Positions 1 through 12,360 of a stretch of 12,360 bases of DNA are shown here, piece after piece. Below the pieces are notes generated by a model, which worked only from the letters and a program-made list of their open reading frames with translations, was not told where the DNA came from and searched no databases. The position numbers were made by a program, and so were the translations under genes. This DNA is from a virus (Duplodnaviria; Heunggongvirae; Uroviricota; Caudoviricetes). Positions within the stretch are counted from its first letter, which is position 1. Every line of letters starts with the position of its first letter. The stretch spans positions 1 to 12,360 of the IMG/VR virus record IMGVR_UViG_2802429245_000001, one strand, 5' to 3'.

Positions 1-115
1 TACCCAACTCCAATCAATCAATGCGTTTTAATCGACAATACAAATAATATAAGACGCGTGAGATGTCGCCCGGTGATTCGCTTTCTGGTGTTTTTTCGAT
101 CTTTCCGGGTTTTAA

Positions 116-433
116 ATTCCTATCGATGAACGCCTGGAAAAACTGGAAGAAAACGTCGCGCAGTTCAGCGCGAAGAATGCCCCGAAAGATACCGGTGATA
201 ACAAGCCGGAAGGCAGCACCGGCGATCAGGGACAGGACAACGCAGAACAGAACAACAAGGACGACAAAACCTTCACGCTGACCACCGGGCAGGGCGAAAA
301 GCTGTTCTCCACAGTGAACGCCATCGCGGAGAAGGTTACCAGTATGGAAACCGCATTTGCTGAACTCAGCAAGGACGCCACGAAGCTGCCGGGCAACAAT
401 CCGGCCGGTGGCGAAACTTTTAACCTGGTGTAA
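116..433 (+). pseudogene. Capsid scaffolding protein (P2 gpO-like), C-terminal ~105 codons only; 5'-truncated with no canonical in-frame start
   Basis: The frame ending at TAA 431-433 translates to ...ERLEKLEENVAQFSAK...VTSMETAFAELSKDATKLPGNNPAGGETFNLV*, which resembles the C-terminal scaffolding region of gpO-type proteins as I recall them. In-frame stops lie at 74-76 and 113-115, and the first in-frame GTG/ATG are at 314/344. It sits immediately upstream of the capsid gene, as in P2 (O then N). Confidence 0.5.
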
Positions 434-447
434 CCGGAGAGAACGCA

Positions 448-1461
448 ATGAACATGACACCAGAAGCACAAAAGCTGGTTAATCAGTACATCAGCGAACT
501 GCAAAAAACATTCAGTGACTGCGGGAAATCAAGCGATCGTTTCTTTTCGCTGACCGAGCCACGCAGTATTGCCCTGCGTAAAGCCCTGCTGGAAAGCACA
601 GAGTTTCTGAGTTTCATCACCTGCATGGACGTTCCGCACCCGCAGGGGCAGGTCGTCACCGTGGGCGAATCCACGCTGCGCACCGGTCGCGTGAAAAGCG
701 GTCGTTTCGCTAAAGGTTCGGGCATCAAAGGCAACGAATTTAAACTCGTTGAAACTGATTCCTGCTGCGTGATCACCTGGGAACAACTCGCCATCTGGGC
801 GAATGCCGGCAGCCCGCAGGAATTTTTCAACCTGATGAACTCCGCCGCCGTCACCAACTTTGCGCTGGACATGCTGCGCATTGGCTTTAACGGTAAAGAG
901 GCTGCTGAAAACTCTGACCCGGAAAGTCACCCGAACGGCGAAGACGTCAACATCGGCTGGCATGAAATCGCCAAAAAGTGGGGAGAACAGCCCGGCAATA
1001 CCTCCCGTATTCTGACGGACGCCGTTACCCTGGGCGAAGGCGGTGATTATGTCGGCCTTGATGCCATGGCCTCAGACCTGATCCGCACTTATATCCCGGC
1101 GCAATATCACAACGATCCTCGCCTTACTGTGCTGGTTGGCGCAGACCTTGTGGCTGCTGAAGAACTACGCCTCTACAACAAAGAGGACAAGCCCACCGAA
1201 AAAGTGGCCGCACAGTTGCTGACGAAGAACATCGCAGGCCGCAAGGCCATCATTCCGCCGTTTATGCCGGGTAAGCGTATGGTGGTGACCATGCTGCCAA
1301 ACCTGCAGATCCTGACGCTGAAGGATTCCCGCCGTCGTAAAGCGGAAGATGTGGGCGATCGCAAACAGTTCGAAAACTCATACTGGCGTTACGAGGGGTA
1401 CGCCCTGGGCGATCCGGATTTATATGCTGCCGTGGATGAGTCTGCGGTCACTATCGCCTGA
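448..1461 (+). CDS. Major capsid protein, P2 gpN family
   Basis: 337-aa ORF with SD GGAGA 7 nt upstream of ATG 448. Size, position after the scaffold remnant and before the terminase endonuclease subunit, and the sequence match the P2 gpN-type major capsid protein from recall. Confidence 0.88.
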   Translation: MNMTPEAQKLVNQYISELQKTFSDCGKSSDRFFSLTEPRSIALRKALLESTEFLSFITCMDVPHPQGQVVTVGESTLRTGRVKSGRFAKGSGIKGNEFKLVETDSCCVITWEQLAIWANAGSPQEFFNLMNSAAVTNFALDMLRIGFNGKEAAENSDPESHPNGEDVNIGWHEIAKKWGEQPGNTSRILTDAVTLGEGGDYVGLDAMASDLIRTYIPAQYHNDPRLTVLVGADLVAAEELRLYNKEDKPTEKVAAQLLTKNIAGRKAIIPPFMPGKRMVVTMLPNLQILTLKDSRRRKAEDVGDRKQFENSYWRYEGYALGDPDLYAAVDESAVTIA

Positions 1462-1478
1462 TAAACGGAGCGCACGGT

Positions 1479-2189
1479 ATGCCAACGCCAATGCAGCGAC
1501 AACGTGCCCGACAGATGGATGAGCGCCGTGCGGCGCTCATGACCACAACGGACGGACGCGCCATCAGCACAGAGAGTCAGCACATTAAACTGCTGGCACT
1601 GGATAACGACATCAGACAACTGCACAACATGGAGCTGCTGTCTGACAAGCTGGAATTCAAGCGGAGCACGCTGCTGCCCCGCTGGCTGCCACACGCACAG
1701 GCTTATCTGGAGGGGGAACGCGTCTATCAGAATCCCATTCTGGTGTACTGCATCATCTGGCTGTTCGATACCGGGCAGTTTGAGATGGCGCTGCGGTGGA
1801 CTGACATTGCCATTGAGCAGGGGCAAAAGACGCCGGAGAACTTCAAAAGCGAGCTGCCAACGTTTGTGGCCCATTTCATTCTTGAATGGGCAGAAACCGA
1901 AGCTGAACGCGGGAACAGTATCGCGCCATATTTTCAGCAGGTGTTTGAAAAAATCCGTGACAAATGGCGCGTGAATGAACGCCTTGCTGCCCGCTACTGG
2001 CGCTTTGCAGGCGTCCTGCTGCTGCGCGGCGATGACGGTAAACCGCTGGCCAGTGCAATTAACGATCCGGAGAGACTGCAACAGGCCGACCAGTGTCTGG
2101 AACGGGCTGCCTGGCTGCATCCCAAAATTCAGGTGAAAACCCTGCGCCAGCGCATTGCCGCAAGACTGCGCGCGTTGCAGGGCACGTAA
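1479..2189 (+). CDS. Terminase endonuclease (small) subunit, P2 gpM-like
   Basis: 236-aa ORF with SD ACGGAG 8 nt upstream of ATG 1479, 17 nt after the capsid stop. Size and synteny (N-M-L) are as in P2-like phages. Confidence 0.8.
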   Translation: MPTPMQRQRARQMDERRAALMTTTDGRAISTESQHIKLLALDNDIRQLHNMELLSDKLEFKRSTLLPRWLPHAQAYLEGERVYQNPILVYCIIWLFDTGQFEMALRWTDIAIEQGQKTPENFKSELPTFVAHFILEWAETEAERGNSIAPYFQQVFEKIRDKWRVNERLAARYWRFAGVLLLRGDDGKPLASAINDPERLQQADQCLERAAWLHPKIQVKTLRQRIAARLRALQGT

Positions 2190-2287
2190 ACGACTCCCAA
2201 CAACCGGGCGGGCGCGGTGGAGGTGTGCCGGCAAAAGCCATCAGCACACTGCGGAAACCGGTCAGCCCGCCTTTCCCCGGAGTGAGC

Positions 2288-2782
2288 ATGTTTGACGGGA
2301 AAAGCATTCACTATCAGCAGGCCATTATTCAGAACGATGGATTCTGGCCGGATATTGATGCCGGCGATTTTGAAAAGAGCCGCAGCATCCCCGCCGTCAC
2401 GTCACACGAAACGGTGCTGACGGCGCTGCTTTGCGCGGTAACAGAGATTAACACTGAACTGGCTGCACGCCGTGAATACTGGCAGGAACAGGGCTACATC
2501 CGGGCCGCTGATATTCCGGGTTACACCGTGTTGCAACCAGAGCCGCGCAATACAGGCGCACAACCTGAACGGATGCAGAATCACATTACAGCACTGTACA
2601 CCAAGGCCGTGTATGCACGCGCAAAGGCCGATCTTTTGCCGGAATCTGCCAGCGTGGGGCGGCGCGAGGCGCAACCCTCATCAGAAGCCAGCGAGAGTCG
2701 CCGGACGTTGCTGGCTGAAGCGGCCATGGCGGTGCGGGCGCTGCTGGGCCGACCACGTGCATCCATCGCGCTGATTGATTAA
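2288..2782 (+). CDS. Head completion/stabilization protein, P2 gpL-like
   Basis: ATG 2288 is preceded by GGAG at 2279-2282. The 164-aa product contains FWPDIDAGDF, resembling the gpL-family FxPDIDP region from recall. The track ORF starts at 2093, but that extension overlaps the gpM gene and lacks an RBS. An in-frame GTG at 2225 is an alternative start. Confidence 0.75.
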   Translation: MFDGKSIHYQQAIIQNDGFWPDIDAGDFEKSRSIPAVTSHETVLTALLCAVTEINTELAARREYWQEQGYIRAADIPGYTVLQPEPRNTGAQPERMQNHITALYTKAVYARAKADLLPESASVGRREAQPSSEASESRRTLLAEAAMAVRALLGRPRASIALID

Positions 2783-2791
2783 GGAAATGGT

Positions 2792-3265
2792 ATGACGCAA
2801 CTCGCCAGCCTGACGGCATTCATTGAAAACAATCTGCCGGCACGCGCACGCATTCCGTTCACCAGTGACATGGATGACATCACGCTCGTTCCGTTTACGA
2901 AGTCGCTGGGGCACGGGCAGTTATGTACGCAGGTTCGAAAATATACGGCTTTTCTGCGATGGGACGCATGGCCCTACCGCAAACTGAATCCGGATTTGGT
3001 GTTTTCTCTGGTTGAAGCCTGGCTGGCAGACAACGGCGGCGACCTGCGCCAGCGCCTGGCACCGGATGCGCCAGCCGTTGACGTCGAAGTGGATGATGAA
3101 AATGAAGTGGCATGGCTGGAAATCAGTCTGCCGCTGGTTGATCCCATCACCCTGGTTGAGGACGAAAACGGCCCCATCCCCAGAGGCGGGAAACGTTACC
3201 AGCTGGAAAAGCCTGAAATCTGGGTGGCTCAGGCGCATCAGCTTCACTGTCAGGTGATGCCATGA
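2792..3265 (+). CDS. Putative tail completion protein (P2 gpR-like)
   Basis: 157-aa ORF with SD AAGGA upstream of ATG 2792. Size and position (after gpL, immediately before the S-like gene, stop overlapping the next start as ATGA) fit a gpR-type tail completion protein. The assignment rests mostly on synteny. Confidence 0.45.
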   Translation: MTQLASLTAFIENNLPARARIPFTSDMDDITLVPFTKSLGHGQLCTQVRKYTAFLRWDAWPYRKLNPDLVFSLVEAWLADNGGDLRQRLAPDAPAVDVEVDDENEVAWLEISLPLVDPITLVEDENGPIPRGGKRYQLEKPEIWVAQAHQLHCQVMP

Positions 3266-3975
3266 CGCGCCCCGTGATTAACGAGTCACAACTCCGGCAG
3301 GTTCGTCGCGCCATCAGAGAGGCAGAACTTCCGCCGGCAAAGGCCAGAAAGCTGTTGGTTCGCATTGCGAAATACGGCCTGATACCGGCTGCACGACGCA
3401 ATGTGAAAGCACAGCGAACACCGGAGGGGGCAGCCTGGGCACCACGAAAAAGACCGGATAAAGCCAGCGGCAGGTATAAAAACAAAATGCTGCTGGGACT
3501 GCCGAAACTGCTGGCCATCAGGGTTGATGGCAGCGGGAAAAGTGTCCGCCTTTTCTTCAAAAAAGGGGATTACAACACCGGCTCTCATGGTGGGGCGGTT
3601 GCGTGGGTGCAACAGCACGGCGCAACCATCAAAGGCCGCGCCACAAAACGCCGGGACAGCGAAGCCATGCGCACCCGTCCCGCCACACGACGGCAGGCAG
3701 AACGCCTTCTTTCTCTGGGCTTTCGCGCCCCCGTCGGCGCGGTCAGCAAAAAAACCGGACGCAGGGGATACAGAAAACCTTCCCTGAAATGGATTATGGA
3801 AAACATGAGTATGGCGCAGGCCGGGCTGGTGATCAGCATTCTGAAAGGCGAGCAGAAAAAACGTGTATGGGAAATCAAAATTCCCTCCCGCGCATTTCTG
3901 GGAGCCAGTAACGCTGAATTTGCCCGCATTCTGGAGGCGCAATTGCGCAGCCTGCATTACGGCGGCACGAGATAA
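3262..3975 (+). CDS. Phage virion morphogenesis / tail completion protein (gpS-like), extended basic form
   Basis: 237-aa ORF whose start overlaps the upstream stop (ATGA at 3262-3265). Central VAWVQQHGATIKG and C-terminal IPSRAFLG resemble conserved motifs of the virion morphogenesis family from recall. The protein is very Arg/Lys-rich. Confidence 0.55.
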   Translation: MTRPVINESQLRQVRRAIREAELPPAKARKLLVRIAKYGLIPAARRNVKAQRTPEGAAWAPRKRPDKASGRYKNKMLLGLPKLLAIRVDGSGKSVRLFFKKGDYNTGSHGGAVAWVQQHGATIKGRATKRRDSEAMRTRPATRRQAERLLSLGFRAPVGAVSKKTGRRGYRKPSLKWIMENMSMAQAGLVISILKGEQKKRVWEIKIPSRAFLGASNAEFARILEAQLRSLHYGGTR

Positions 3976-3994
3976 CAAAATCAGGAGACAAATC

Positions 3995-5143
3995 ATGACC
4001 TGGCCATCTGTCACGATCGAACAGTACAACACATTCAGCAGTTCACCGGACGGCGTGGAAAATACACTGCTGTTTGTGGGCAATGCACAAAACAACAAAG
4101 GTAAGGTTCTGCCGGTTAACGCTAACAGCGATCTGGATGAACTGCTGGGAACGAACGCCAGCCCGCTGAAGAATTTCCTTCAGTCCGCACTGACCAATGC
4201 CGGGCAGAACGCCTTTTTCTATGTTGCCGTTCTGCCGGAAGCAGGCAGGGGCAAAGAAGCGACGCCAGCCTGCCAGGCATGGCAGAACGCCATACTGGCG
4301 GCTCAGGAAACTGTTTCAGTTGAAGGCGTGGTGATCACCGAACCGGTCAGCACGAAGGATGACATCAACGCCATACAGGCGTTACGTCAGACCATCATCA
4401 ATAAATATCAGCGCCGCATCTGGTTCATTCTGACCATTGCCGCCAATAACTGCAGCAAAACCTGGGCAGATTACGTTGCTGAACTGACCACGCTACAGGA
4501 AGGCATCGCCGCCCCGCAAATCATGCTGGTTCCGGAAATTTTTGGCTTTGAACCGGGCGTTCTTGCCGGCCGTCTGTGTAACAGCGCCGTCACCATTGCT
4601 GACAGTCCGGCGCGTGTGGCAACCGGGGGCCTGTCCGCACTGAAAACCACTGAACGCCCGAAGGACAGCGCAGGGCAGGCAATTGATCTCGCCACCCTGC
4701 AGGCACTGGCAACCGCCCGCTACAGCGTGCCCATGTGGTATGCCGACTATGACGGCCTTTACTGGGCTGACGGTGTAACACTTGAAGTGGAAGGTGGGGA
4801 CTACAACGTCATTGAGCATGTCCGCATTGCTGATAAGGTGGCGCGCCGCGTGCGGCTGATAGCCATCCCCAAGATTGCAGATCGCTCGCTGAACAGCACG
4901 CCGGGTAGCATTGCCGCACATGAAACGCTGTTTGCCCGCCCACTGCGTGCCATGGCGAAATCCACGCAAATTAACGGCATCACATTTCCGGGAGAAGTGA
5001 AATCGCCCCGGAAAGGCGACGTGGTTATCACCTGGCAGGACGAAAAGACGGTCAGCATCAGCATTGTCGTCCGCCCTTACGCCTGCCCTAAAACCATCAA
5101 AGTGGGCATTCAGCTGGATAAATCTCTGGAGGAAAACGCATGA
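3995..5143 (+). CDS. Putative contractile tail sheath protein (DUF2586-like family, non-P2 type)
   Basis: 382-aa product with SD AGGAG 7 nt upstream of ATG 3995. It sits in the canonical myovirus order sheath - tube - chaperone - tape measure. The track ORF start at 3863 overlaps the previous gene and is rejected. No clear similarity to P2 FI from recall. Confidence 0.55.
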   Translation: MTWPSVTIEQYNTFSSSPDGVENTLLFVGNAQNNKGKVLPVNANSDLDELLGTNASPLKNFLQSALTNAGQNAFFYVAVLPEAGRGKEATPACQAWQNAILAAQETVSVEGVVITEPVSTKDDINAIQALRQTIINKYQRRIWFILTIAANNCSKTWADYVAELTTLQEGIAAPQIMLVPEIFGFEPGVLAGRLCNSAVTIADSPARVATGGLSALKTTERPKDSAGQAIDLATLQALATARYSVPMWYADYDGLYWADGVTLEVEGGDYNVIEHVRIADKVARRVRLIAIPKIADRSLNSTPGSIAAHETLFARPLRAMAKSTQINGITFPGEVKSPRKGDVVITWQDEKTVSISIVVRPYACPKTIKVGIQLDKSLEENA

Positions 5144-5595
5144 CGACCCGCATTAACGGCATGGCGTTTGACACTTTTATCGGTGGAACGGATATCCATG
5201 TGAAAAGCATCTCACTGGACATCAGCGATGAAAGCGCCGTTGCCAAAACCCGTGGCATCCCTGACGGCAAACTGCGCGGCCCTGTCAGTGCCGAAGGTGA
5301 AATCGAAATGAGTACCCGCAGCTTTAACCAGCTCGGGGAAGTGGCTGCTCAGGCGGGATCGTGGCGTGACCTGCCGCCAATGGATTTTGTGTTTTACGCC
5401 AATACGGGAACCGAAGAAATCCGCGTTGAAGCCTTCGGTTGTGAGCTGATGCTTTCCGGCCTGTTAAGCATTGACACCGAGAGCGCAGATCTGACCACGC
5501 ACAAAATCAAGTACGTGGTGGCAAGCCCTGACTTTGTGCGTATCAACGGCGTGCCCGTTCTCTCAGAGAACGACGTGCGCGGACTGATGGGGTGA
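5140..5595 (+). CDS. Putative tail tube protein (DUF2597-like)
   Basis: 151-aa ORF whose start overlaps the sheath stop (ATGA at 5140-5143), with GGAGGA upstream. Size and position between sheath and the chaperone/tape measure genes fit a tube protein. Confidence 0.5.
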   Translation: MTTRINGMAFDTFIGGTDIHVKSISLDISDESAVAKTRGIPDGKLRGPVSAEGEIEMSTRSFNQLGEVAAQAGSWRDLPPMDFVFYANTGTEEIRVEAFGCELMLSGLLSIDTESADLTTHKIKYVVASPDFVRINGVPVLSENDVRGLMG

Positions 5596-5598
5596 ACC

Positions 5599-5895
5599 AT
5601 GCAGGAGCATGAGCGCACCATTATCACTCTGGGCATTCTGGGCGGAATCGCTGCCGCAAGTCGGGTGCTGGCTGGCGCAGAGCCGATTACGTTGCGGTTG
5701 TTTGTGGGCCGAACCCTGCTGGGGAGCGCGCTGGGTGTTTCTGCCGCTGCCCTGCTGGTTCGCTACCCGAATCTTGACCCACTGGCCATTGCCGGCGCAG
5801 GCACCGCAATGGGCGTTGCCGGTTACCAGATTGTTGAAATCTTCCTGCGTCATATGCGCCGGAAGCTGGACGAGAAAGAGAACAAAGAGGAGTAA
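5599..5895 (+). CDS. Holin (3 predicted transmembrane segments, charged C-terminus)
   Basis: 98 aa with three hydrophobic stretches (TIITLGILGGIAAASRVLAG, LRLFVGRTLLGSALGVSAAALLV, LAIAGAGTAMGVAGYQIVEIFL) and a highly charged tail (RHMRRKLDEKENKEE). SD GGGGTGA is upstream of ATG 5599 and the gene lies just upstream of the endolysin. Confidence 0.65.
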   Translation: MQEHERTIITLGILGGIAAASRVLAGAEPITLRLFVGRTLLGSALGVSAAALLVRYPNLDPLAIAGAGTAMGVAGYQIVEIFLRHMRRKLDEKENKEE

Positions 5896-5900
5896 CCGCA

Positions 5901-6008
5901 ATGTTGTCCCGCAGGGAACAAAAAGCCGCTGCCATTGCCTGGAAAATTATCCGGGCACTGTGGTACTGGCTGCGCAAACCTCAGCAACCTCATAAGGAGC
6001 AAAAATGA
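5901..6008 (+). CDS. Small basic amphipathic peptide (35 aa), hypothetical; between holin and endolysin
   Basis: ATG 5901 is preceded by a strong SD, AGAGGAG, with an 8-nt spacer. Translation is MLSRREQKAAAIAWKIIRALWYWLRKPQQPHKEQK. The stop TGA 6006-6008 overlaps the endolysin start ATG 6005-6007. It is below the size cutoff of the ORF track. Confidence 0.35.
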   Translation: MLSRREQKAAAIAWKIIRALWYWLRKPQQPHKEQK

Positions 6009-6346
6009 AACTCTCCGATAAGCAACAACAATTTACCGTCATGATCGGAAAACTCATCCAGTTTGCCCATCAGCGCGGTTATGGCCTGACGTTCGGTGAG
6101 GCGTACCGCACGCCAGAACAGGCAAAACTCAACGCACAAAAGGGATCCGGCATTGCCAACAGCCTGCACTGCCAGCGGCTGGCCGTGGATTTTAATCTGT
6201 TTATTAACGGTGAATATCAGACCCGCACAGAGGCCTACCGCGAGCTGGGCGAGTACTGGGAATCCCTTGGTGGCGCATGGGGCGGTCGTTTTAAAAACCG
6301 CCCGGATGGCAATCATTTCAGCCTTGAGCACGACGGCGTGCGCTGA
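6005..6346 (+). CDS. Endolysin, peptidase M15 (LAS-type zinc metallopeptidase, probable L-alanyl-D-glutamate endopeptidase)
   Basis: 113 aa with a perfect SD AAGGAG 4 nt upstream of ATG 6005. Metal-binding motifs SLHCQRLAVDF (H-x6-D) and DGNHFSLEHDG resemble T5-type M15 endolysins from recall. No signal peptide or SAR segment. Confidence 0.82.
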   Translation: MKLSDKQQQFTVMIGKLIQFAHQRGYGLTFGEAYRTPEQAKLNAQKGSGIANSLHCQRLAVDFNLFINGEYQTRTEAYRELGEYWESLGGAWGGRFKNRPDGNHFSLEHDGVR

Positions 6347-6353
6347 TTTTACG

Positions 6354-6383
6354 CTTAATAAGCCTTCCTGCAGGCTTATTAAG
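6354..6383 (+). terminator. Stem-loop (11-12 bp stem) immediately after the endolysin stop; possible attenuator or terminator without a strong U-tract
   Basis: CTTAATAAGCC (6354-6364) pairs with GGCTTATTAAG (6373-6383), and the loop region contains the palindrome CCTGCAGG. It is followed by CCCTCTTATTCTTGAC rather than a clean T-run. Confidence 0.3.
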
Positions 6384-6410
6384 CCCTCTTATTCTTGACT
6401 TTAAAAGGAA

Positions 6411-6704
6411 ATGATGATGAACGATAAAAACACCCAGACTACCGCAGAGAACACCATCACTTTACAGGTCGGCGAGCATGAACTGACGTTTATCCCGACC
6501 GTAAAAGCCTACAACGACCTGCAGAACGACTTCATGCCGGATAACAAAATCGCGCCGCTGAAAAACTACCTGCGCCGTATCGTGATTAAAGAGCACCGCG
6601 ATCTGCTGAACCAGCTGCTGGAAAAACCAGGAATGCCGGCCAGCCTGGCAACAGCCGTGAATAACGAGTTTGTGCCGGAAGTGGAAATCACCGTAAAAAA
6701 ATAA
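6411..6704 (+). CDS. Tail assembly chaperone (P2 gpE-like / lambda gpG analogue)
   Basis: 97-aa ORF directly upstream of the tape measure gene, ending ...EITVKK* at a run of A residues. Three tandem ATGs lie at 6411/6414/6417 and the AAAGGA SD favours the second or third. Confidence 0.7.
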   Translation: MMMNDKNTQTTAENTITLQVGEHELTFIPTVKAYNDLQNDFMPDNKIAPLKNYLRRIVIKEHRDLLNQLLEKPGMPASLATAVNNEFVPEVEITVKK

Positions 6705-6892
6705 AAAGCCATCTGGGAGCCATTGATCGCAATGACCTTACCCGGATGCTGATTCTGCGCCGCCACTGGCTGCCCGGCGAGGATGACTCGCCGCAGTCAC
6801 TGGCTGCCGCCGTCTGGCTGGATAACCACTACTGGGAAAATATGAGCATCGCCGTCAATAACGGCATTATCCGTGCTTTTAAGGGATCGTAA
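6411..6892 (+). CDS. Tail assembly chaperone, -1 frameshift-extended isoform (gpE+E' / G-T analogue), predicted ~160 aa
   Basis: The -1 frame is open from the slippery site to TAA 6890-6892, which overlaps the tape measure ATG (TAATG). The extension reads IKSHLGAIDRNDLTRMLILRRHWLPGEDDSPQSLAAAVWLDNHYWENMSIAVNNGIIRAFKGS. Recoding at this position is conserved in the chaperones of long-tailed phages. Confidence 0.55.
6695..6701 (+). other. Candidate -1 programmed ribosomal frameshift slippery heptamer A_AAA_AAA, followed immediately by the zero-frame stop TAA
   Basis: Zero-frame codons are GTA AAA AAA TAA. The heptamer AAAAAAA at 6695-6701 allows both lysyl-tRNAs to re-pair in the -1 frame, after which the reading frame continues ATA AAA AGC and onward. 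Confidence 0.5.
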
Positions 6893-9066
6893 TGTCACAA
6901 CAGCGCCTTGAATTACTTCTTGAACTGACAGACCGCCTGACAAGGCCGTTGCGTGCAGCCGGGCGACAGGTTCAGGGATTTGCTGCAACAAGTCGGGGAG
7001 CCTTTCGGGACATTGCTACCGGAGGCGCTGCGCTCTGGGGAGTGGGTGCAGCCATTCAGGGGGCACTGATGCCAGCCATTGAAATGGACAGGGCGCTCGG
7101 TGAGGTGAAATCACTGGGCGTCGCAGAGTCCGGATTGCGTAAACTCAGCCGCGCCGCCGTTGATTTCACTATGGAATACGGCGGGGCTGCGCAGGATTTT
7201 GTGCGTGCGTCATACGACATCCAGTCAGCCATTGCCGGGTTAACTGACGATGAGCTGTCCCGCTTCACCACCGCATCAGCAACGGTGGCAGCAGCAACCA
7301 AATCCAGCAGCCAGACCATTACCGCCTACATGGGCACCATGTACGGCATCTTTAAAGACCAGGCTGATGCCATGGGAAAAAGCAAATGGGTGGAGCAGGT
7401 CGCCGGGCAAACCGCCACCGCCGTGCAAATGTTTAAAACAACCGGCGATAACATGTCAGCGGCGTTCACCACGCTGGGTGCCAGTGCAAAAGCGGCCGGT
7501 ATTGATGCGGCTGAACAGTTCGCCGTGCTGGGACAACTACAGGCCACCATGAGTGGCAGCGAGGCAGGGACGAAATACAAAGCATTTCTTGCCGCAGTAG
7601 GCAGCGCCCAGAAAAAGCTGGGGCTTAATTTCGTGAATAAAGACGGCACGATGAAAAGTGTTGTCGAGATCATGAAACTTATCAGGGGCAAATTTGGTGA
7701 TCTGTCAAAAGTGGCTGATTCCGATTTGCTGAAAAGCGCCTTTGGCTCCGATGAAGCTGTGGCCATGATTAAATTACTCAATGCGGACATTGGCGGACTT
7801 GAAAAGAATATCGCCACGCTGGGCAATATCAAAGGTATGGATAAGGCTGTCGAAATGGCACAAGCCATGGCCGATCCATGGGAACAGGCCGCTGCAATTA
7901 TTAACGGCATTCGCATCGAAATTGGCACGCAGTTGTTGCCTGTTCTGTACCCGTTTATCCAGAAAAGCAACGAAGGCGGCAAATCCTTTGTTGCCTGGTT
8001 ACGTCTGTATCCAAACATCACGCGCGCAATTGGTTTACTGGCGGGGACTTTTCTTAGCCTCGCAACCGTTGGCGCTCTCAGCAATATCATCATGGGACTG
8101 TTCAGCTTTGTAACAAAAGGGCTGATTGCCCCCGTAACAGGCTTAATAAAGCTTCTCAGGTTAAGCGCATTGCGAAATACACTGGCCGCTGCTGCAACAG
8201 GGGCTTATGCCGCTGCACAACAATATCTGAACAGGGTCATGCTGGTTTCAATGCTGACAGGACGCGGCTTTCTTACCACCATGCTGATGATGAGCGGGCC
8301 CATTCTGCTTATTGGTGCAGCCATTGCAGCAGTTGTTGCTCTTGTCTGGAAATTCTGGGAACCCATCAAAGCGTTTTTCAGCGGATTCATTCAGGGGTTC
8401 AGCGATGCATGGAAGACTATTTCACTTGGCTCTCCCATTCTGGCCGATATCGGCGCTGTTTTTGGTTTTGTATGGGATGCCATCAAAACAGCATTTAACT
8501 GGCTGATGAATTTACTCACACCGGTAGAACTGACGGGCGAAGCGTTCGGACGCGCCAGCGATGCCGGTGCGTCTTTTGGCCGTATCGTTGCCACAGCAAT
8601 CAACTGGATCCTGACGCCCACTGAAATCATGCTCGGACTGTTATCAAAAGTGTGGCAGGCCCTGCTCATTATTCTGCAGGGGTATAAGGATATCTGGAAC
8701 AGCCTGGATATTACTCACCCCCTAGATTCACTGAAAAATCTGGCTTCCGGGATCCTGGCTATTTTCAGCAACCTCTGGGAACTGGTGAAACAGTCCTTCA
8801 GTGATTCATGGGGCTGGATTGTGGACAAACTCAACATGATCCCCGGCGTTAACATCGGCACATCAGAAAGCACAGGAAGTGGCGAAGGCTCCGTATTAAC
8901 CGGCGGTAAAGCCATCAGCGCGGGGCCGGGTGGCATTGCGGCAGAAATGCAGAACAACAGCGAAAACCAGACCACCATCGACAACTCCCGTCGTGTGGTC
9001 AACGTCAATGTGCAGGATCCATCCCCTGCCCGTCTTAACGAGTGGATGGAGCTGCATGCATACTGA
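6892..9066 (+). CDS. Tail tape measure protein
   Basis: 724 aa with an Ala-rich, helical N-terminal half, central hydrophobic segments and C-terminal aromatic periodicity typical of tape measure proteins. It lies immediately downstream of the frameshifting chaperone. By the roughly 0.15 nm per residue rule this predicts a tail on the order of 100 nm (inference). Confidence 0.88.
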   Translation: MSQQRLELLLELTDRLTRPLRAAGRQVQGFAATSRGAFRDIATGGAALWGVGAAIQGALMPAIEMDRALGEVKSLGVAESGLRKLSRAAVDFTMEYGGAAQDFVRASYDIQSAIAGLTDDELSRFTTASATVAAATKSSSQTITAYMGTMYGIFKDQADAMGKSKWVEQVAGQTATAVQMFKTTGDNMSAAFTTLGASAKAAGIDAAEQFAVLGQLQATMSGSEAGTKYKAFLAAVGSAQKKLGLNFVNKDGTMKSVVEIMKLIRGKFGDLSKVADSDLLKSAFGSDEAVAMIKLLNADIGGLEKNIATLGNIKGMDKAVEMAQAMADPWEQAAAIINGIRIEIGTQLLPVLYPFIQKSNEGGKSFVAWLRLYPNITRAIGLLAGTFLSLATVGALSNIIMGLFSFVTKGLIAPVTGLIKLLRLSALRNTLAAAATGAYAAAQQYLNRVMLVSMLTGRGFLTTMLMMSGPILLIGAAIAAVVALVWKFWEPIKAFFSGFIQGFSDAWKTISLGSPILADIGAVFGFVWDAIKTAFNWLMNLLTPVELTGEAFGRASDAGASFGRIVATAINWILTPTEIMLGLLSKVWQALLIILQGYKDIWNSLDITHPLDSLKNLASGILAIFSNLWELVKQSFSDSWGWIVDKLNMIPGVNIGTSESTGSGEGSVLTGGKAISAGPGGIAAEMQNNSENQTTIDNSRRVVNVNVQDPSPARLNEWMELHAY

Positions 9067-9406
9067 TAAAACGCTTTACATTGATTTGCTCATCACCGGC
9101 CGCAATCTCACGCTGAACAGCGCCAGTGAGCCGGTGTTATGCAACAACAGGGAAAGTATTGCCCAGGACTGCCAGCACGCCATCATTGAGAGCGGACTGG
9201 CAACGCGCCTGCTGGCTGAAAAAAGCCCGACGCTTCGTGCCGACATCATGATGCAGATGACACTGCTGATTGAAGATGATGAGCGTATTACGCCTGGCAC
9301 GGTCAGTGTGACAGAAGAAACCCCGCTTTCTGGTCGCCTGCTGATTAGCGCCCACACCGAAGATTTTTTTGAACCCCTGACTTTTACGGTATCTCTTGAT
9401 GATTAA
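9056..9406 (+). CDS. Small baseplate-associated protein (DUF2590-like; possibly gpW/gp25-like wedge protein)
   Basis: 116 aa with ATG 9056 preceded by GGAG at 9048-9051. It overlaps the tape measure 3' end by 11 nt and precedes baseplate J. Size and position fit a gpW/gp25-like protein, but sequence similarity is weak from recall. Confidence 0.45.
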   Translation: MHTDKTLYIDLLITGRNLTLNSASEPVLCNNRESIAQDCQHAIIESGLATRLLAEKSPTLRADIMMQMTLLIEDDERITPGTVSVTEETPLSGRLLISAHTEDFFEPLTFTVSLDD

Positions 9407-10583
9407 CGGCAAACCTACTGCAGATTACGAGCGCATTCTGGCTGATAATGGCATGCCGGTAACCGAAGAACAGGCTCGCGCTGAATTTGAAGCCATTGTC
9501 AAAGACGAAGGGCTTATCACCAACACTTCCCGCATGTCGCCGTTCTGGCGACTGATTACAGCTATCACCACAAAACCCGTGATGTGGCTGAAAGATGCGC
9601 TGGTTAATGTGGTGATGAAAAACCTGTTTCTGGCTGATGCCAGCGGTGTATTCGTTGATGTTTTTGCCTGGGCGGTAAACCTGCAACGCAAGGCCGCCAC
9701 GCACGCAGCCGGCGAGATTCGTTTCACCAAAAACGACATTGATCGCGCAGTTACCGTGTCGGCCGGTACGCAGATTCAGACAGAACGCATTAACGGCGTG
9801 ATTTATACGCTGACCGTTGTCAGGGATACCGTTATTCCGGCAGGAACACTCAGCATGAACATCGATGTTTCTGCGGAACAGGCCGGAGCCGGCTTTAACC
9901 TTGCGCCGGGATATTACCGCATCCTTCCGGTGGCGATTGATGGTATTGCCGGCGTTGAGAACGATGAAAACTGGCTGACCACACCGGGTGCCAACGAAGA
10001 AAGCGATGACGAGTTGCGTGATCGTGTTCGCAATCAGTTTAATCTTGCCGGCGCTTATCACACCGATGCAGTTTACCGGGGATTAATTGCCGGCGTTGCC
10101 GGCATCAGTGCCGACCGCATCTATTTTCTGCATGACGCACCACGCGGCCCCGGCACAGCAAATGCTTACATTCTGCTGGATACCGGCATCGCATCCGAAC
10201 CGTTCGTTGATGCAGTAAACGCATTCATTAACGATGAAGGTCATCACGGACACGGTGATGATCTGCGCTGTTTTTCCATGCCTGAAACACGCCACACCCT
10301 GACCGTGACACTCTGGTTATATGCAACGCTGAACCTCAGCGATGAGGAAATTCAGACGTTATTGCGCAATGTGGAAAATCTGGTTCGCTGTGCATTTCGA
10401 GAAAACAGCGATTATGACGTTCAGAAAACATGGCCGTATAGCCGTTTCAGCATGTCCAGACTGGGCGAAGAGATCCACCAGGTATTTCCACAGGTGGAGT
10501 CGGTTACATTTTCTCTTCCGGATATTCTCAGTGATCTGGCTGTTCCTCGTCTGGAATCCCTTACTGTGGAGGTGAGCGCGTGA
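9399..10583 (+). CDS. Baseplate J / gp47 family protein
   Basis: About 394 aa. The start is either ATG 9399 or TTG 9396, overlapping the previous gene's stop at 9404-9406. Size and position are those of a baseplate J-like protein (P2 gpJ / Mu gp47), followed by an I-like gene and the tail fibre. Confidence 0.8.
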   Translation: MINGKPTADYERILADNGMPVTEEQARAEFEAIVKDEGLITNTSRMSPFWRLITAITTKPVMWLKDALVNVVMKNLFLADASGVFVDVFAWAVNLQRKAATHAAGEIRFTKNDIDRAVTVSAGTQIQTERINGVIYTLTVVRDTVIPAGTLSMNIDVSAEQAGAGFNLAPGYYRILPVAIDGIAGVENDENWLTTPGANEESDDELRDRVRNQFNLAGAYHTDAVYRGLIAGVAGISADRIYFLHDAPRGPGTANAYILLDTGIASEPFVDAVNAFINDEGHHGHGDDLRCFSMPETRHTLTVTLWLYATLNLSDEEIQTLLRNVENLVRCAFRENSDYDVQKTWPYSRFSMSRLGEEIHQVFPQVESVTFSLPDILSDLAVPRLESLTVEVSA

Positions 10584-11215
10584 AACTTCCGGAGATCCCT
10601 GAATTCCCGCTCCCCACCTGGATGAATAAAGGCGAGCCGTTAACGCTGGCACATTCATCGCATCGCTACTGGGAAAAGGTATACAGCTGGCTGACGTGGC
10701 CACTACAGCAGATTGATGTCGACACCTGCGCAGAACCTTTACTTAACCTGCTGGCTTATCAGCGCAATATCACCCGATTTAAAGGAGAGCCGGTTTCGTT
10801 ATTTCGCTTAAGGGTGAAACACGCGTTTATTAACGCTCAGGACTCTGGCGAACGCGCCGGCTTCGAACGCATCTTTAAGCGTCTTGGCGTGGGAGACGTT
10901 AAAACACTGGAACGGCAACTGCAGCATGACTGGGACGTTATTTTACTGCGCATTAATGACACCCAGTTAAGTGAAAACAACGCGCTGATGATGCAGCTCG
11001 TGCGCCAGTATGGTCGTACCTGCAGGCGCTATTTCTTTCAGGTAATCAATACAACCACTGCCCGGCTGACAGCCGGCACATTTGATGGCCATTACAGGTA
11101 TCACACAGCAGAAGCAACGGTGAGAAAGGACACCATCTGGTTAACCGCTTCGCTACAGGCAGGACATTACGGCCTGTCCGTGGAGCATTACACATTACAG
11201 GCAGACGAAGCATGA
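10580..11215 (+). CDS. Baseplate/tail protein (P2 gpI-like or Mu gp48/YmfQ-like)
   Basis: 211 aa with a GTG start at 10580 overlapping the baseplate J stop (GTGA), preceded by a strong SD GGAGGTGA. Position between baseplate J and the tail fibre fits this family. Confidence 0.55.
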   Translation: MKLPEIPEFPLPTWMNKGEPLTLAHSSHRYWEKVYSWLTWPLQQIDVDTCAEPLLNLLAYQRNITRFKGEPVSLFRLRVKHAFINAQDSGERAGFERIFKRLGVGDVKTLERQLQHDWDVILLRINDTQLSENNALMMQLVRQYGRTCRRYFFQVINTTTARLTAGTFDGHYRYHTAEATVRKDTIWLTASLQAGHYGLSVEHYTLQADEA

Positions 11216-12360
11216 GCACGATTATTACTGAACAGTACGAACACTGGTGTGCGAATCAGCTCATCAGTGGAAAACCTGCGCGCCCGGATACATTTGTTTT
11301 TGCATATATTCCGGGACAGGATGAATCCGCAGAGATCCCCCGCGATGAGATACTCCCTGATGAATCCATGATTCAGTATCGTGCGCCGGTCACCCAGTAC
11401 GGCCTCCTGTCGCCGAACGCGACCGCGTTTTCCATCATTCTGGACACGACAGTCGGCGACTTCGAATACAACTGGATCGGTCTGCTGAACGAAGAAAGCG
11501 GCGTGCTCTGCATGATTGCGCACACACCTCGTCAGCAAAAAATTAAAACAGCGAACGGCGTGCAGGGAAACAACCTGATCCGCACATTTTCCATGGAGTT
11601 TGACGGCGCAGCCGCAGCAATGCATATCGATGTCAGTGCTGATGTCTGGCAGATTGATTTCACTGCACGCCTTGCAGGAATGGATGAGGCCCGCCGGCTG
11701 CTGGCGTTTGATCACTACGGTGAAGCCGCTTTTCTGGGGGATGGTTTTCAGGTCAGCTATCAGGATGGTACCGCTACTGTTGCCGCCGGCGTGGGTTATG
11801 TGGGAGGTCTGCGCGTCAGTCTGCGCGAACCTTACAGCCTGCCGGCTGCGGTCGGGGATACCATTTGGATTGATGCAAGCTGGCAGGGATTTGTTACCGG
11901 CGAATGGAATACCGTTTTTACGTTCTGCGCCCGCCAGGAACATGCGTCCTATACAGACGGTAACGGCTTCCGACACTTTGTCGCGCCACTTGCGAAACTG
12001 ACATCAGAAGGCTTACAGGATTTACGTCCACAGACGCCCGATGAAGAACAAAGCAATGCACTGGCAGAGCACGAAAAATCCCGCCGTCATCCGGACGCAA
12101 CACTGAAGGAGAAAGGCTTTGCGCAGTACAGCAACTCCACCGACAGCGACGCAGAAGACCGCGCCGCCACATCAAAGGCAGTAAAAGCCGCAATGGATAA
12201 GGCAAAAGGCGCTGTTGAGCGTGGCGGCGACACCATGACCGGGGAACTGAAAATCCGTGGTGTTAATGCGCTGAGGATTTTCAACGAAGCCTTTGGTCTG
12301 ATTTTTCGTCGTTCGGAAGAGTGCCTGCACCTTATCCCTACCAGTGAAGGTCAGGGCGAG
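11212..12360 (+). CDS. Tail fibre protein, N-terminal part (3'-truncated by the window end)
   Basis: ATG 11212 overlaps the upstream stop (ATGA). My manual translation shows no stop through 12360 (383 codons). It contains the conserved tail-fibre motif AEHEKSRRHPDATLKEKGFAQYSNSTDSDAEDRAATSKAVKAAMD, similar to P2 gpH / lambdoid Stf, followed by GDTMTGEL. Confidence 0.82.
   Translation, partial: MSTIITEQYEHWCANQLISGKPARPDTFVFAYIPGQDESAEIPRDEILPDESMIQYRAPVTQYGLLSPNATAFSIILDTTVGDFEYNWIGLLNEESGVLCMIAHTPRQQKIKTANGVQGNNLIRTFSMEFDGAAAAMHIDVSADVWQIDFTARLAGMDEARRLLAFDHYGEAAFLGDGFQVSYQDGTATVAAGVGYVGGLRVSLREPYSLPAAVGDTIWIDASWQGFVTGEWNTVFTFCARQEHASYTDGNGFRHFVAPLAKLTSEGLQDLRPQTPDEEQSNALAEHEKSRRHPDATLKEKGFAQYSNSTDSDAEDRAATSKAVKAAMDKAKGAVERGGDTMTGELKIRGVNALRIFNEAFGLIFRRSEECLHLIPTSEGQGE

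What the first reader, a model, noticed from the sequence alone, without database searches (positions are those of the whole stretch)
448..12360. Mosaic virion module: P2-type head genes joined to a rearranged, non-P2-type contractile tail module
The head genes follow P2 order (O-N-M-L), but sheath and tube sit directly after the R/S-like completion genes and before the chaperone, tape measure and baseplate J/I/fibre genes. In P2 the sheath/tube/chaperone/tape measure block lies downstream of the fibre genes. The sheath and tube candidates also do not resemble P2 FI/FII from recall. The tape measure and fibre regions look more AT-rich than the head genes by eye. Together this suggests modular recombination between phage lineages.
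Basis: partly seen in the sequence, partly recalled or inferred. Interest (0 to 1): 0.45.

Follow-up and report, generated by a model that had tools for sequence, protein, structure and literature searches.

The report
HP1-type P2-family prophage late genes
The window is the head, tail and lysis gene block of an Escherichia prophage from the HP1 branch of the P2 phage family; its "P2 head plus non-P2 tail" layout is the normal, already published architecture of that branch, not a fresh recombinant.

Summary
From left to right: capsid N, small terminase M, head completion L, R-like, S-like, sheath, tube, chaperone, tape measure, J, I, fibre.

The order matches Haemophilus phage HP1 (orf18 to orf31) and Cronobacter phage ESSI-2 gene for gene. 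It also matches all 80 species-representative genomes that carry this sheath family. Sheath (DUF2586) and tube (HP1_Orf24) show no sequence or profile similarity to P2 FI/FII, but their predicted folds are sheath and tube.

Third-codon-position GC (GC3) does not change at the proposed head/tail junction (0.64 vs 0.62, p=0.56). It does drop modestly at about 6,600-6,900, from 0.635 to 0.558.

The HP1-type layout was described in 1996 and 2009. A 2023 paper proposed that one branch of the P2 family acquired an old paralogous tail module when the branches split. So the mosaic reading holds only for deep evolution.

The window is a complete draft contig from a roughly 35-kb prophage found in 41 of 5,426 complete E. 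coli genomes.

By-product: no spanin was detected in this lineage. A 35-aa, +7 amphipathic ORF sits where relatives have none, which makes it a candidate disruptin.

The parts
1..127 (.). Contig-end sequence unrelated to the prophage, probably a k=127 assembly-graph overlap
   Evidence: All relatives start aligning at base 127/128. This includes sister contig L007, which is 100% identical from 128 onward. The window is the whole contig PTSN01000045.1.
128..433 (+). 3' end of the gpO-type capsid scaffold/protease gene
   Evidence: 98-100% nucleotide identity to the ends of intact GPO genes in L001 and L007.
448..1461 (+). Major capsid protein, P2 gpN family
   Evidence: Pfam PF05125, E=3.8e-83. 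Amino-acid identity: 58% to ESSI-2, 31% to HP1, 29% to P2 N.
1479..2189 (+). Small terminase subunit (gpM type)
   Evidence: Pfam PF05944, E=1.7e-35. Identity: 39% to HP1 orf19, 24% to P2 M.
2288..2782 (+). Head completion / head-tail adaptor (gpL type)
   Evidence: Pfam PF05926, E=1e-27. 33% identical to HP1 orf20.
2792..3265 (+). Tail terminator (gpR-like)
   Evidence: Pfam PF06891, E=4.6e-16. PHROG 65 'tail terminator'.
3262..3975 (+). Tail completion / neck protein (gpS-like, with a C-terminal extension as in HP1 orf22)
   Evidence: Pfam PF05069, E=2e-8. PHROG 26. 27% identical to HP1 orf22 over its full length.
3995..5143 (+). Contractile tail sheath, DUF2586 / HP1 orf23 family
   Evidence: Pfam PF10758, E=1.8e-127. 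PHROG 907 'tail sheath'. AlphaFold model pLDDT 76; all 47 PDB hits with E<=1e-3 are sheath proteins. 47% identical to HP1 orf23; no similarity to P2 FI.
5140..5595 (+). Tail tube, HP1 orf24 family
   Evidence: Pfam PF10772, E=1e-50. AlphaFold model pLDDT 80; the top PDB hits I inspected are tail-tube proteins of contractile systems (phage 812, PVC, AFP, A-1(L), diffocin), with T4 gp19 and Hcp lower in the list. 51% identical to HP1 orf24; no similarity to P2 FII.
5599..5895 (+). Holin (P2 gpY type)
   Evidence: Pfam PF04550, E=5.5e-28. 43% identical to P2 Y; no hit to the HP1 holin.
5901..6008 (+). 35-aa cationic (+7) amphipathic ORF; candidate outer-membrane disruptor (inferred)
   Evidence: A GAGGAG sequence lies 8 nt upstream, and its stop overlaps the endolysin ATG. 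Present only in the Escherichia lineages that lack a spanin. Annotated only as hypothetical.
6005..6346 (+). Endolysin, M15 metallopeptidase
   Evidence: Pfam PF13539, E=3e-11. 78% identical to the ESSI-2 endolysin.
6353..6384 (+). 13-bp-stem hairpin directly after the endolysin stop; possible terminator or attenuator (inferred)
   Evidence: Listed first among the terminator-like sites in the window, with the longest stem.
6417..6704 (+). Tail assembly chaperone (P2 gpE / HP1 orf26 equivalent)
   Evidence: Pfam PF10963, E=1.6e-26. 40% identical to HP1 orf26.
6695..6892 (+). Slippery heptamer A_AAA_AAA (6695-6701) and the -1 frame extension (DUF6890). Together they would give a 157-aa fusion like P2 E+E'
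   Evidence: The -1 frame is open from the heptamer to a stop that overlaps the tape-measure ATG. DUF6890 Pfam E=3.5e-24.
6892..9066 (+). Tail tape measure protein
   Evidence: Pfam PF10145, E=8e-29. 40% identical to HP1 orf27, 25% to P2 T.
9056..9406 (+). DUF2590 protein, HP1 orf28 family; occupies the gpW position ahead of J (role inferred from position only)
   Evidence: Pfam PF10761, E=4.7e-36. 57% identical to HP1 orf28. No profile similarity to P2 W.
9399..10583 (+). Baseplate wedge protein, J/gp47 family
   Evidence: Pfam PF04865, E=4e-31. 55% identical to HP1 orf29.
10580..11215 (+). Baseplate protein, gpI family
   Evidence: Pfam PF09684, 23.1 bits against a cut-off of 20.6. PHROG 1228. 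48% identical to HP1 orf30.
11212..12360 (+). Tail fibre gene, first 383 codons, cut off by the contig end. The last ~125-180 nt are a segment shared among many coliphage fibre genes
   Evidence: Pfam PF12571 and PF03406. Bases 12182/12235-12360 are 85-100% identical to fibre genes of phiP27, Rac and more than 140 E. coli genomes that share nothing else with the window.

Best explanation
The window is the late-gene block of a temperate prophage from the HP1 subgroup of the family Peduoviridae (P2-like phages), resident in Escherichia.

How it works, shown and inferred:
- The genes lie on one strand with little intergenic space, so they probably form one or two late transcription units. This is inferred.
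- Head: the scaffold (gpO), capsid (gpN) and head-completion protein (gpL) build it. The small terminase (gpM), with the upstream large terminase, packages the DNA.
- Tail: R-like and S-like proteins cap and join it. A DUF2586 sheath and an HP1-orf24 tube polymerise around the tape measure. A chaperone helps; it is likely made in two forms by a -1 frameshift at A_AAA_AAA.
- Baseplate and fibre: DUF2590, J and I form the baseplate wedge that carries the fibre.
- Lysis: a holin and an M15 endolysin sit between the tube and chaperone genes, the same position as in HP1.

The combination of P2-order head genes with a tail module that is unrecognisable against P2 is the defining, inherited architecture of the whole HP1 subgroup. 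It is not a junction created in this genome.
For: - Pfam, PHROG and BLAST assign every gene.
- Gene-for-gene colinearity with HP1 orf17-orf31, ESSI-2 and phiO18P.
- 80 of 80 species-representative loci are colinear, and 71 carry the same capsid family upstream.
- Sheath and tube folds are confirmed by structure prediction and PDB fold search.
- No GC3 break at the head/tail junction.
- Capsid and sheath identities co-vary across relatives, rho=0.61.
- Synonymous divergence from E. coli E7-1N7 is flat across genes, 0.50-0.68.
- The prophage context is intact in related genomes: integrase, gpA-type replication endonuclease, Ogr, portal and large terminase.
- Published descriptions of the HP1-type layout: PMC2771037 and PMC10612066.
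Against: - No phage in the 50,697-record phage collection is similar at the nucleotide level; the best hit covers 2% of the window. The closest isolate (ESSI-2) is only 38-78% identical per protein, so function is inferred by homology, not shown.
- GC3 drops from 0.635 to 0.558 near 6,600-6,900. This is unexplained and could mark an exchange within the subgroup.
- No spanin was found.
- The window's own copy begins with 127 unrelated bases inside gpO. Intactness in this isolate cannot be shown from the contig alone.
Confidence: 0.9

Rival explanations
1. One reading: a recent mosaic. A P2-type head module was recombined onto a foreign contractile-tail module in this phage or its near ancestors, with the join near 2790-4000.
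For: Sheath, tube, DUF2590 and J give no BLAST hit to P2, and sheath, tube and DUF2590 give no profile hit either. The gene order differs from P2. The right half of the window has lower GC3.
Against: The identical layout occurs in HP1, ESSI-2, phiO18P and 80/80 genomes from Enterobacterales and Pasteurellaceae. There is no GC3 change across 2790-4000 (p=0.56). M, L, R and S are closer to HP1 than to P2. Synonymous divergence from a relative is uniform across the junction.
Confidence: 0.03
2. Ancient module replacement. At the split of the P2 and HP1 subgroups, one branch replaced its tail module with a much older paralogous contractile-tail module. This window simply inherits that state.
For: The capsid is equidistant from HP1 (31%) and P2 (29%), while tail proteins are 40-57% identical to HP1 and mostly undetectable in P2. 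The same asymmetry and this explanation are published for phage ACA1 (PMC10612066).
Against: Faster divergence of tail genes without any replacement is not excluded by my data. R, S, J, I, the tape measure and the fibre N-terminus still hit P2-family models, so the tail is not wholly foreign. This reading is compatible with the best explanation; it addresses origin, not identity.
Confidence: 0.5
3. Exchange within the subgroup. The tape measure-baseplate-fibre block (from about 6,900 onward) came from a different, lower-GC HP1-type prophage than the head-sheath-tube-lysis block.
For: The GC3 change point lies near 6,620 (0.635 to 0.558). Its log-likelihood ratio is 12.0, against a maximum of 8.1 in 300 permutations. 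The E7-1N7 relative has a uniform GC3 of 0.61-0.69 over the same genes. The tape measure alone is swapped in E. albertii (73%) and in another E. coli variant (69%), while their flanking genes are 96-100% identical. A strong hairpin lies at 6353-6384.
Against: Synonymous divergence from E7-1N7 is the same on both sides of the step. The identity profile against Edwardsiella and the other relatives shows no block boundary at that point except for the tape measure. The step is small, about 8 points.
Confidence: 0.2
4. Defective remnant or tailocin. The window's source carries only a truncated prophage, because the contig starts inside gpO with unrelated sequence.
For: Bases 1-127 are unrelated to gpO and match no complete E. 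coli genome beyond 32 nt. Head-less clusters of this tail module do exist in Xenorhabdus.
Against: The break is exactly 127 nt from the contig end. The other end also finishes in a 126-nt repeat that is 100% identical in many genomes, which is the signature of k=127 assembly overlaps. A sister assembly has the identical sequence in an intact prophage on a 313-kb contig. Capsid and terminase genes are intact here.
Confidence: 0.07

Closest known systems
Haemophilus phage HP1 (Hpunavirus, Peduoviridae), orf17-orf31
   Same: Identical order: O, N, M, L-like, R-like, S-like, sheath, tube, lysis genes, chaperone, tape measure, DUF2590, J, I, fibre. Every structural protein is homologous, at 23-57% identity.
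   Different: The lysis cassette has different content. HP1 uses its own holin, a lysozyme-type endolysin and an Rz-like spanin. The window has a P2 Y-type holin, an M15 peptidase, a 35-aa cationic ORF and no spanin. The hosts differ, and so does GC content: 40% in HP1, 54% here.
Cronobacter phage ESSI-2 (Seongnamvirus) and related Escherichia/Salmonella/Yersinia phages (ESSI2_ev*, SW3, SI7, vB_YenM_324)
   Same: These are the closest isolated phages, with the same order throughout. Identities to ESSI-2: capsid 58%, sheath 55%, J 61%, M15 endolysin 78%.
   Different: Only 38-78% identical per protein, and not alignable at the nucleotide level. ESSI-2 has an i-spanin after the endolysin and no ORF between holin and endolysin.
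Enterobacteria phage P2 (Peduovirus)
   Same: The head gene order O-N-M-L and their Pfam families. R, S, J, I and tape-measure families. Y-type holin (43% identity). Fibre N-terminus (64% over 50 aa). A chaperone with a -1 frameshift product like E/E'. The wider prophage has Ogr, a gpA-type replication endonuclease, and portal plus large terminase on the opposite strand.
   Different: In P2 the lysis genes lie between L/X and R, and FI-FII-E-T-U-D follow the fibre genes in a separate operon. Here sheath and tube follow S directly. Sheath, tube and DUF2590 have no detectable sequence or profile similarity to FI, FII and W.
Phage Mu tail module
   Same: The general myovirus order: sheath, tube, chaperone, tape measure, then wedge proteins and fibre.
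   Different: No significant protein similarity apart from a 47-aa fibre repeat. Mu places its hub and spike genes between the tape measure and the wedge; the HP1-type layout does not.

Membership tests
HP1 subgroup of Peduoviridae ('HP1-like viruses') | Six P2-type capsid/packaging genes in P2 order (Q, P on one strand; O, N, M, L on the other) | tested here: met
   O (3' end), N, M and L are in the window. Portal and large terminase lie upstream on the opposite strand in the 100%-identical sister contig L007 and in L001.
HP1 subgroup of Peduoviridae ('HP1-like viruses') | Tail proteins of the HP1 type (orf23 sheath/DUF2586, orf24 tube, orf28/DUF2590) rather than P2 FI/FII/W | tested here: met
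   Pfam PF10758, PF10772 and PF10761. 47-57% identical to HP1 orf23, orf24 and orf28. No similarity to P2 FI, FII or W.
HP1 subgroup of Peduoviridae ('HP1-like viruses') | Gene order R-S-sheath-tube-lysis-chaperone-tape measure-baseplate-fibre | tested here: met
   Colinear with HP1, ESSI-2 and phiO18P, and with 80/80 genome loci.
HP1 subgroup of Peduoviridae ('HP1-like viruses') | A temperate P2-type backbone: integrase, CI/Cox-type switch, gpA-type replication endonuclease, Ogr/Delta late activator | tested here: met
   These lie outside the window. They are present in L001, L006 and L007 around the same late genes.
HP1 subgroup of Peduoviridae ('HP1-like viruses') | Produces infectious myovirus particles | not testable with these tools
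   Only prophage sequences are available, and no isolate is similar at the nucleotide level.
Peduovirus / P2-186 subgroup | FI/FII-type sheath and tube in a separate operon downstream of the fibre genes, with lysis genes between L/X and R | tested here: not met
   Sheath and tube follow S directly, lysis genes follow the tube, and no FI/FII homology was found.
Disruptin (phiKT gp28 type outer-membrane disruptor), considered for the 35-aa ORF at 5901-6008 | A small, highly cationic, amphipathic-helical peptide encoded in the lysis cassette of a phage that lacks spanins | tested here: met
   35 aa with net charge +7. The maximum 18-residue helical hydrophobic moment is 0.62, reached by 36 of 1000 shuffles. 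The ORF lies between holin and endolysin. No spanin homologue or credible lipoprotein ORF exists in the prophage. For comparison, gp28 is 56 aa with charge +7 (bioRxiv 10.1101/515445).
Disruptin (phiKT gp28 type outer-membrane disruptor), considered for the 35-aa ORF at 5901-6008 | Complements a lambda Rz/Rz1 spanin defect and disrupts the outer membrane | not testable with these tools
   This needs an experiment. There is no sequence homology to gp28 to lean on; the gp28 paper reports no homologues beyond one nearly identical phage protein.

The most novel reading that the evidence does not exclude
This Escherichia branch of HP1-type prophages has replaced its spanin with a 35-aa cationic amphipathic peptide (5901-6008). 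The peptide would act as a disruptin, breaching the outer membrane at lysis.

The distribution among relatives is reciprocal:
- 62 loci carry an ESSI-2-type i-spanin, and 4 more carry an HP1 orf25-type spanin. In the relatives that have an M15 endolysin, the gap from endolysin to chaperone is about 470-950 nt, where the ESSI-2-type spanin lies, and no ORF of 25-70 aa sits between holin and endolysin.
- The three Escherichia lineages that lack a spanin (this one, including E. coli L001; E. albertii L011; E. coli E7-1N7 L091) all have a 35-aa, +7/+8 ORF between holin and endolysin. Its size, charge and Trp-rich amphipathic core are kept although its sequence has diverged.

If true, this would be a disruptin in a temperate myovirus-type prophage.
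Probability: 0.3. Interest if true: 0.5.

Novelty: new member of a known kind. Interest (0 to 1): 0.15.

Why it matters
For the finding as stated, it matters little. The architecture is the textbook layout of HP1-type P2-family phages, and the idea that their tail module has a separate deep origin is already in print.

There are three modest points of value:
- This Escherichia prophage lineage has no sequenced phage isolate close to it. It occurs in 41 of 5,426 complete E. coli genomes, and its 35-aa ORF is recorded on at least 1,000 public contigs.
- Its sheath and tube are still annotated as 'DUF2586' and 'phage protein'. The fold evidence here supports naming them.
- Its spanin-less lysis cassette, with a conserved small cationic ORF, gives a cheap, testable candidate for a second disruptin family.

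Tried and rejected
- **Nucleotide search of the phage collection:** only fragments matched, at most 2% of the window.
- **Sequence and profile searches of sheath and tube against the PDB:** nothing significant.
- **hhalign of the sheath, tube and DUF2590 alignments against single P2 FI, FII and W sequences:** no similarity. The profiles were shallow (Neff about 2), so this does not exclude the remote homology that PMC10612066 reports from HHpred.
- **Mu comparison:** no tail homology.
- **Search for P2-type Ogr binding sites (TGT-N12-ACA):** 2 matches against 2.9 expected by chance, so uninformative.
- **Sigma-70 promoter scan:** fewer hits than in shuffled sequence.
- **Recombination between the window lineage and E. 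coli E7-1N7:** rejected, because synonymous-site identity is flat across genes.
- **Search for spanins by homology and by lipobox scan:** only spurious antisense or out-of-frame ORFs turned up.
- **Esposito et al. 1996 (the HP1 genome paper):** could not be read because it is not held in the library.
- **First 127 bases:** matched only 32 nt of some ETEC plasmids. Their origin is unresolved.

Full report
**What the window is**

The 12,360 bases are one complete draft-assembly contig, PTSN01000045.1 of GCA_002965865.1. From base 128 to 11,461 it is 100% identical to part of a 313-kb contig from a sister assembly (L007). That contig continues upstream into a gpA-type replication endonuclease, ParM/StbA, Ogr/Delta, portal, large terminase and an intact gpO gene.

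Forty-one of 5,426 complete E. coli genomes carry at least 80% of the window; the full-length matches I listed are 96-98% identical. In strain CFIAFB20180511 it is part of a roughly 35-kb prophage with an integrase and a switch region, inserted in topB. Every alignment to a relative starts at base 127/128. The last 126 bases are a repeat that is 100% identical in many E. coli fibre genes. Both ends therefore look like k=127 assembly overlaps rather than biology.

**Checking the observation**

All long ORFs with family support are on the + strand. Pfam, PHROG and BLAST give the following map:

| Coordinates | Gene |
|---|---|
| 128-433 | gpO, 3' end |
| 448-1461 | capsid N |
| 1479-2189 | small terminase M |
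| 2288-2782 | head completion L |
| 2792-3265 | R-like tail terminator |
| 3262-3975 | S-like completion protein |
| 3995-5143 | DUF2586 sheath |
| 5140-5595 | HP1_Orf24 tube |
| 5599-5895 | Y-type holin |
| 5901-6008 | 35-aa ORF |
| 6005-6346 | M15 endolysin |
| 6417-6704 | tail assembly chaperone |
| 6746-6892 | DUF6890 |
| 6892-9066 | tape measure |
| 9056-9406 | DUF2590 |
| 9399-10583 | baseplate J |
| 10580-11215 | gpI family |
| 11212-12360 | fibre, first 383 codons |

It omits only the lysis cassette between tube and chaperone.

P2 does place FI-FII-E-T-U-D after H-G, and its lysis genes between L/X and R. Sheath and tube give no BLAST hit to FI/FII and no profile hit. I confirmed their identity independently. 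AlphaFold models (pLDDT 76 and 80) were searched against the PDB. All 47 sheath-model hits with E<=1e-3 are contractile sheath proteins. The top tube-model hits I inspected are tail-tube proteins of contractile systems (phage 812, PVC, AFP, A-1(L), diffocin), with T4 gp19 and Hcp lower in the list.

**Is it a mosaic?**

The layout is colinear, gene for gene, with Haemophilus phage HP1 orf17-orf31, Cronobacter phage ESSI-2 and Aeromonas phage phiO18P.

A scan of one genome per bacterial species found 124 loci encoding this sheath family. The tool kept the best 80. All 80 have the window's genes in the window's order, and 71 have the same capsid family upstream. The hosts are mainly Enterobacterales and Pasteurellaceae. 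The sheath family has at least 1,357 clusters at 90% identity in public data.

Per-protein identity to HP1 and P2:

| Protein | HP1 | P2 |
|---|---|---|
| N | 31% | 29% |
| M | 39% | 24% |
| L | 33% | 28% (partial) |
| R | 23% | none |
| S | 27% | 31% (partial) |
| sheath | 47% | none |
| tube | 51% | none |
| chaperone | 40% | none |
| tape measure | 40% | 25% |
| DUF2590 | 57% | none |
| J | 55% | none |
| I | 48% | none |

The tail is clearly HP1-type, and most head and completion genes are nearer HP1 than P2. The capsid is equidistant from the two.

Across relatives, capsid and sheath identities co-vary (rho=0.61). Against a 75%-identical E. coli relative (E7-1N7), third-position identity at conserved codons is flat across all 14 genes, at 0.50-0.68.

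**Composition**

GC ranges from 0.49 to 0.60 in 500-nt windows. GC3 by block:

| Block | GC3 |
|---|---|
| N-M-L | 0.639 |
| R-S-sheath-tube | 0.624 |
| holin-endolysin-chaperone | 0.647 |
| tape measure to fibre | 0.558 |

The head versus sheath/tube contrast is null (p=0.56). The best single change point is at about 6,620. Its log-likelihood ratio is 12.0, against a maximum of 8.1 in 300 permutations.

The step does not coincide with the proposed junction at 2790-4000. The E7-1N7 relative lacks the step, with GC3 of 0.61-0.69 throughout. The cause is unexplained. An exchange within the subgroup of the distal tail block is possible but not supported by the divergence profiles.

**Genuine local mosaicism**

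Local exchange does exist, at these places:
- Fibre 3' segment: bases 12182/12235-12360 are shared at 85-100% identity with phiP27, Rac and more than 140 otherwise unrelated E. coli prophage fibres.
- Tape measure: 73% identical in E. albertii and 69% in one E. coli variant, where all flanking genes are 96-100% identical.
- Lysis cassette: a P2 Y-type holin with an ESSI-2-type M15 endolysin, neither shared with HP1.

**Comparison with what is known**

Lavigne et al. 2009 (PMC2771037) defined the 'HP1-like viruses'. They state that the six capsid genes are in the same order in HP1 and P2 phages, while the other structural genes, mainly tail, generally show no similarity to those of P2.

The ACA1 paper (PMC10612066) documents the same head/tail asymmetry. 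[quoted passage not shown]

No phage isolate is close to this prophage: the best protein identities are 38-78% to ESSI-2, and nothing aligns at the nucleotide level. It is an uncharacterised member of a known kind.

**How it most likely works**

Shown by homology or structure: the assignments listed in the table above.

Inferred:
- Gene spacing is tight from O to the endolysin. The hairpin listed first by the terminator scan, with the longest stem, lies at 6353-6384. This suggests one long late transcript through the lysis genes, with possible attenuation before the chaperone/tape-measure block.
- The chaperone ends in GTA AAA AAA TAA. A -1 slip on A_AAA_AAA (6695-6701) reads without a stop into the DUF6890 frame and ends at the tape-measure ATG. 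That gives a 157-aa product analogous to P2 E+E'.
- DUF2590 is assigned a gpW-like wedge role from position and size only (one search found no similarity).

**By-product: a spanin-less lysis cassette**

The window and the whole prophage contain no homologue of the HP1, P2 or ESSI-2 spanins, and no credible lipoprotein ORF.

An ESSI-2-type i-spanin is found in 62 loci, and an HP1 orf25-type in 4 more. In relatives with an M15 endolysin the endolysin-to-chaperone gap is about 470-950 nt, where the ESSI-2-type spanin lies. The holin-to-endolysin gap there is mostly 42 nt or less and holds no ORF of 25-70 aa.

The three spanin-less Escherichia lineages are this one (including L001), E. albertii L011 and E. 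coli E7-1N7 L091. They have a 74-111-nt endolysin-to-chaperone gap and a 113-122-nt holin-to-endolysin gap. That second gap holds a 35-aa ORF with net charge +7/+8 and a Trp-rich amphipathic core. The ORF has a GAGGAG sequence 8 nt upstream, and its stop overlaps the endolysin start. Databases call it only 'hypothetical'.

It resembles the phiKT gp28 'disruptin' in size class, charge, predicted amphipathicity and genomic position (bioRxiv 10.1101/515445). That is a functional analogy only, and it is untested.

**Verdict**

The object is an ordinary late-gene block of an HP1-type P2-family prophage, and interest is low. The only item worth a follow-up experiment is the candidate disruptin.

Noticed in passing
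window 5901-6008 (context 5599-6416): The lysis cassette has no detectable spanin. A 35-aa ORF with net charge +7 and an amphipathic core lies between holin and endolysin. It is present only in the Escherichia lineages that lack the i-spanin found in 62+4 related loci, which makes it a candidate disruptin-like outer-membrane disruptor.
   Followed up: partly
window 1-127 and 12235-12360: Both contig ends look like k=127 assembly-graph overlaps. The first 127 nt are unrelated to gpO and absent from complete E. coli genomes apart from a 32-nt match to ETEC plasmids. The last 126 nt are a fibre-gene repeat that is 100% identical in E. coli W, DH5alpha and others.
   Followed up: partly
window 6695-6892: The slippery heptamer A_AAA_AAA sits immediately before the chaperone stop codon. 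The -1 frame is open into the DUF6890 ORF and ends at the tape-measure start. DUF6890 therefore appears to be the frameshift extension of the chaperone (like P2 E'), not a separate gene as annotated.
   Followed up: partly
window 6353-6384: A 13-bp-stem hairpin lies right after the endolysin stop. It is listed first by the terminator scan and has the longest stem in the window. It may be an operon boundary or attenuator ahead of the chaperone/tape-measure genes.
   Followed up: no
window ~6,600-6,900: GC3 drops from 0.635 to 0.558 and stays low through the tape measure, baseplate and fibre genes. The step is absent in the related E. coli E7-1N7 prophage (L091). The cause is unknown.
   Followed up: partly
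L001 1905-2288 and 37697-39271: In E. coli CFIAFB20180511 the prophage sits inside topB (topoisomerase III), which is left as two annotated pseudogene fragments. The prophage also carries ParM/StbA and plasmid-stability genes, an SPFH protein and Hok/Gef.
   Followed up: no
L041, L048, L051, L053, L060, L062 (Xenorhabdus) and L081: These loci carry head-less versions of the same tail module: R, sheath, tube, chaperone, tape measure, baseplate and fibre, with no capsid, small terminase, L or S, and (in the Xenorhabdus loci) no holin or endolysin. In L041, the one locus I checked upstream, an Ogr/Delta gene precedes R and ordinary chromosomal genes lie beyond it. This is a tailocin-type locus, possibly the xenorhabdicin cluster.
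   Followed up: partly
L011 (E. albertii) and L006 (E. coli), tape measure gene; window 6892-9066: The tape measure is 73% and 69% identical to the window's, while all neighbouring genes are 96-100% identical. This indicates exchange of the tape-measure gene, or part of it, among otherwise near-identical prophages.
   Followed up: partly
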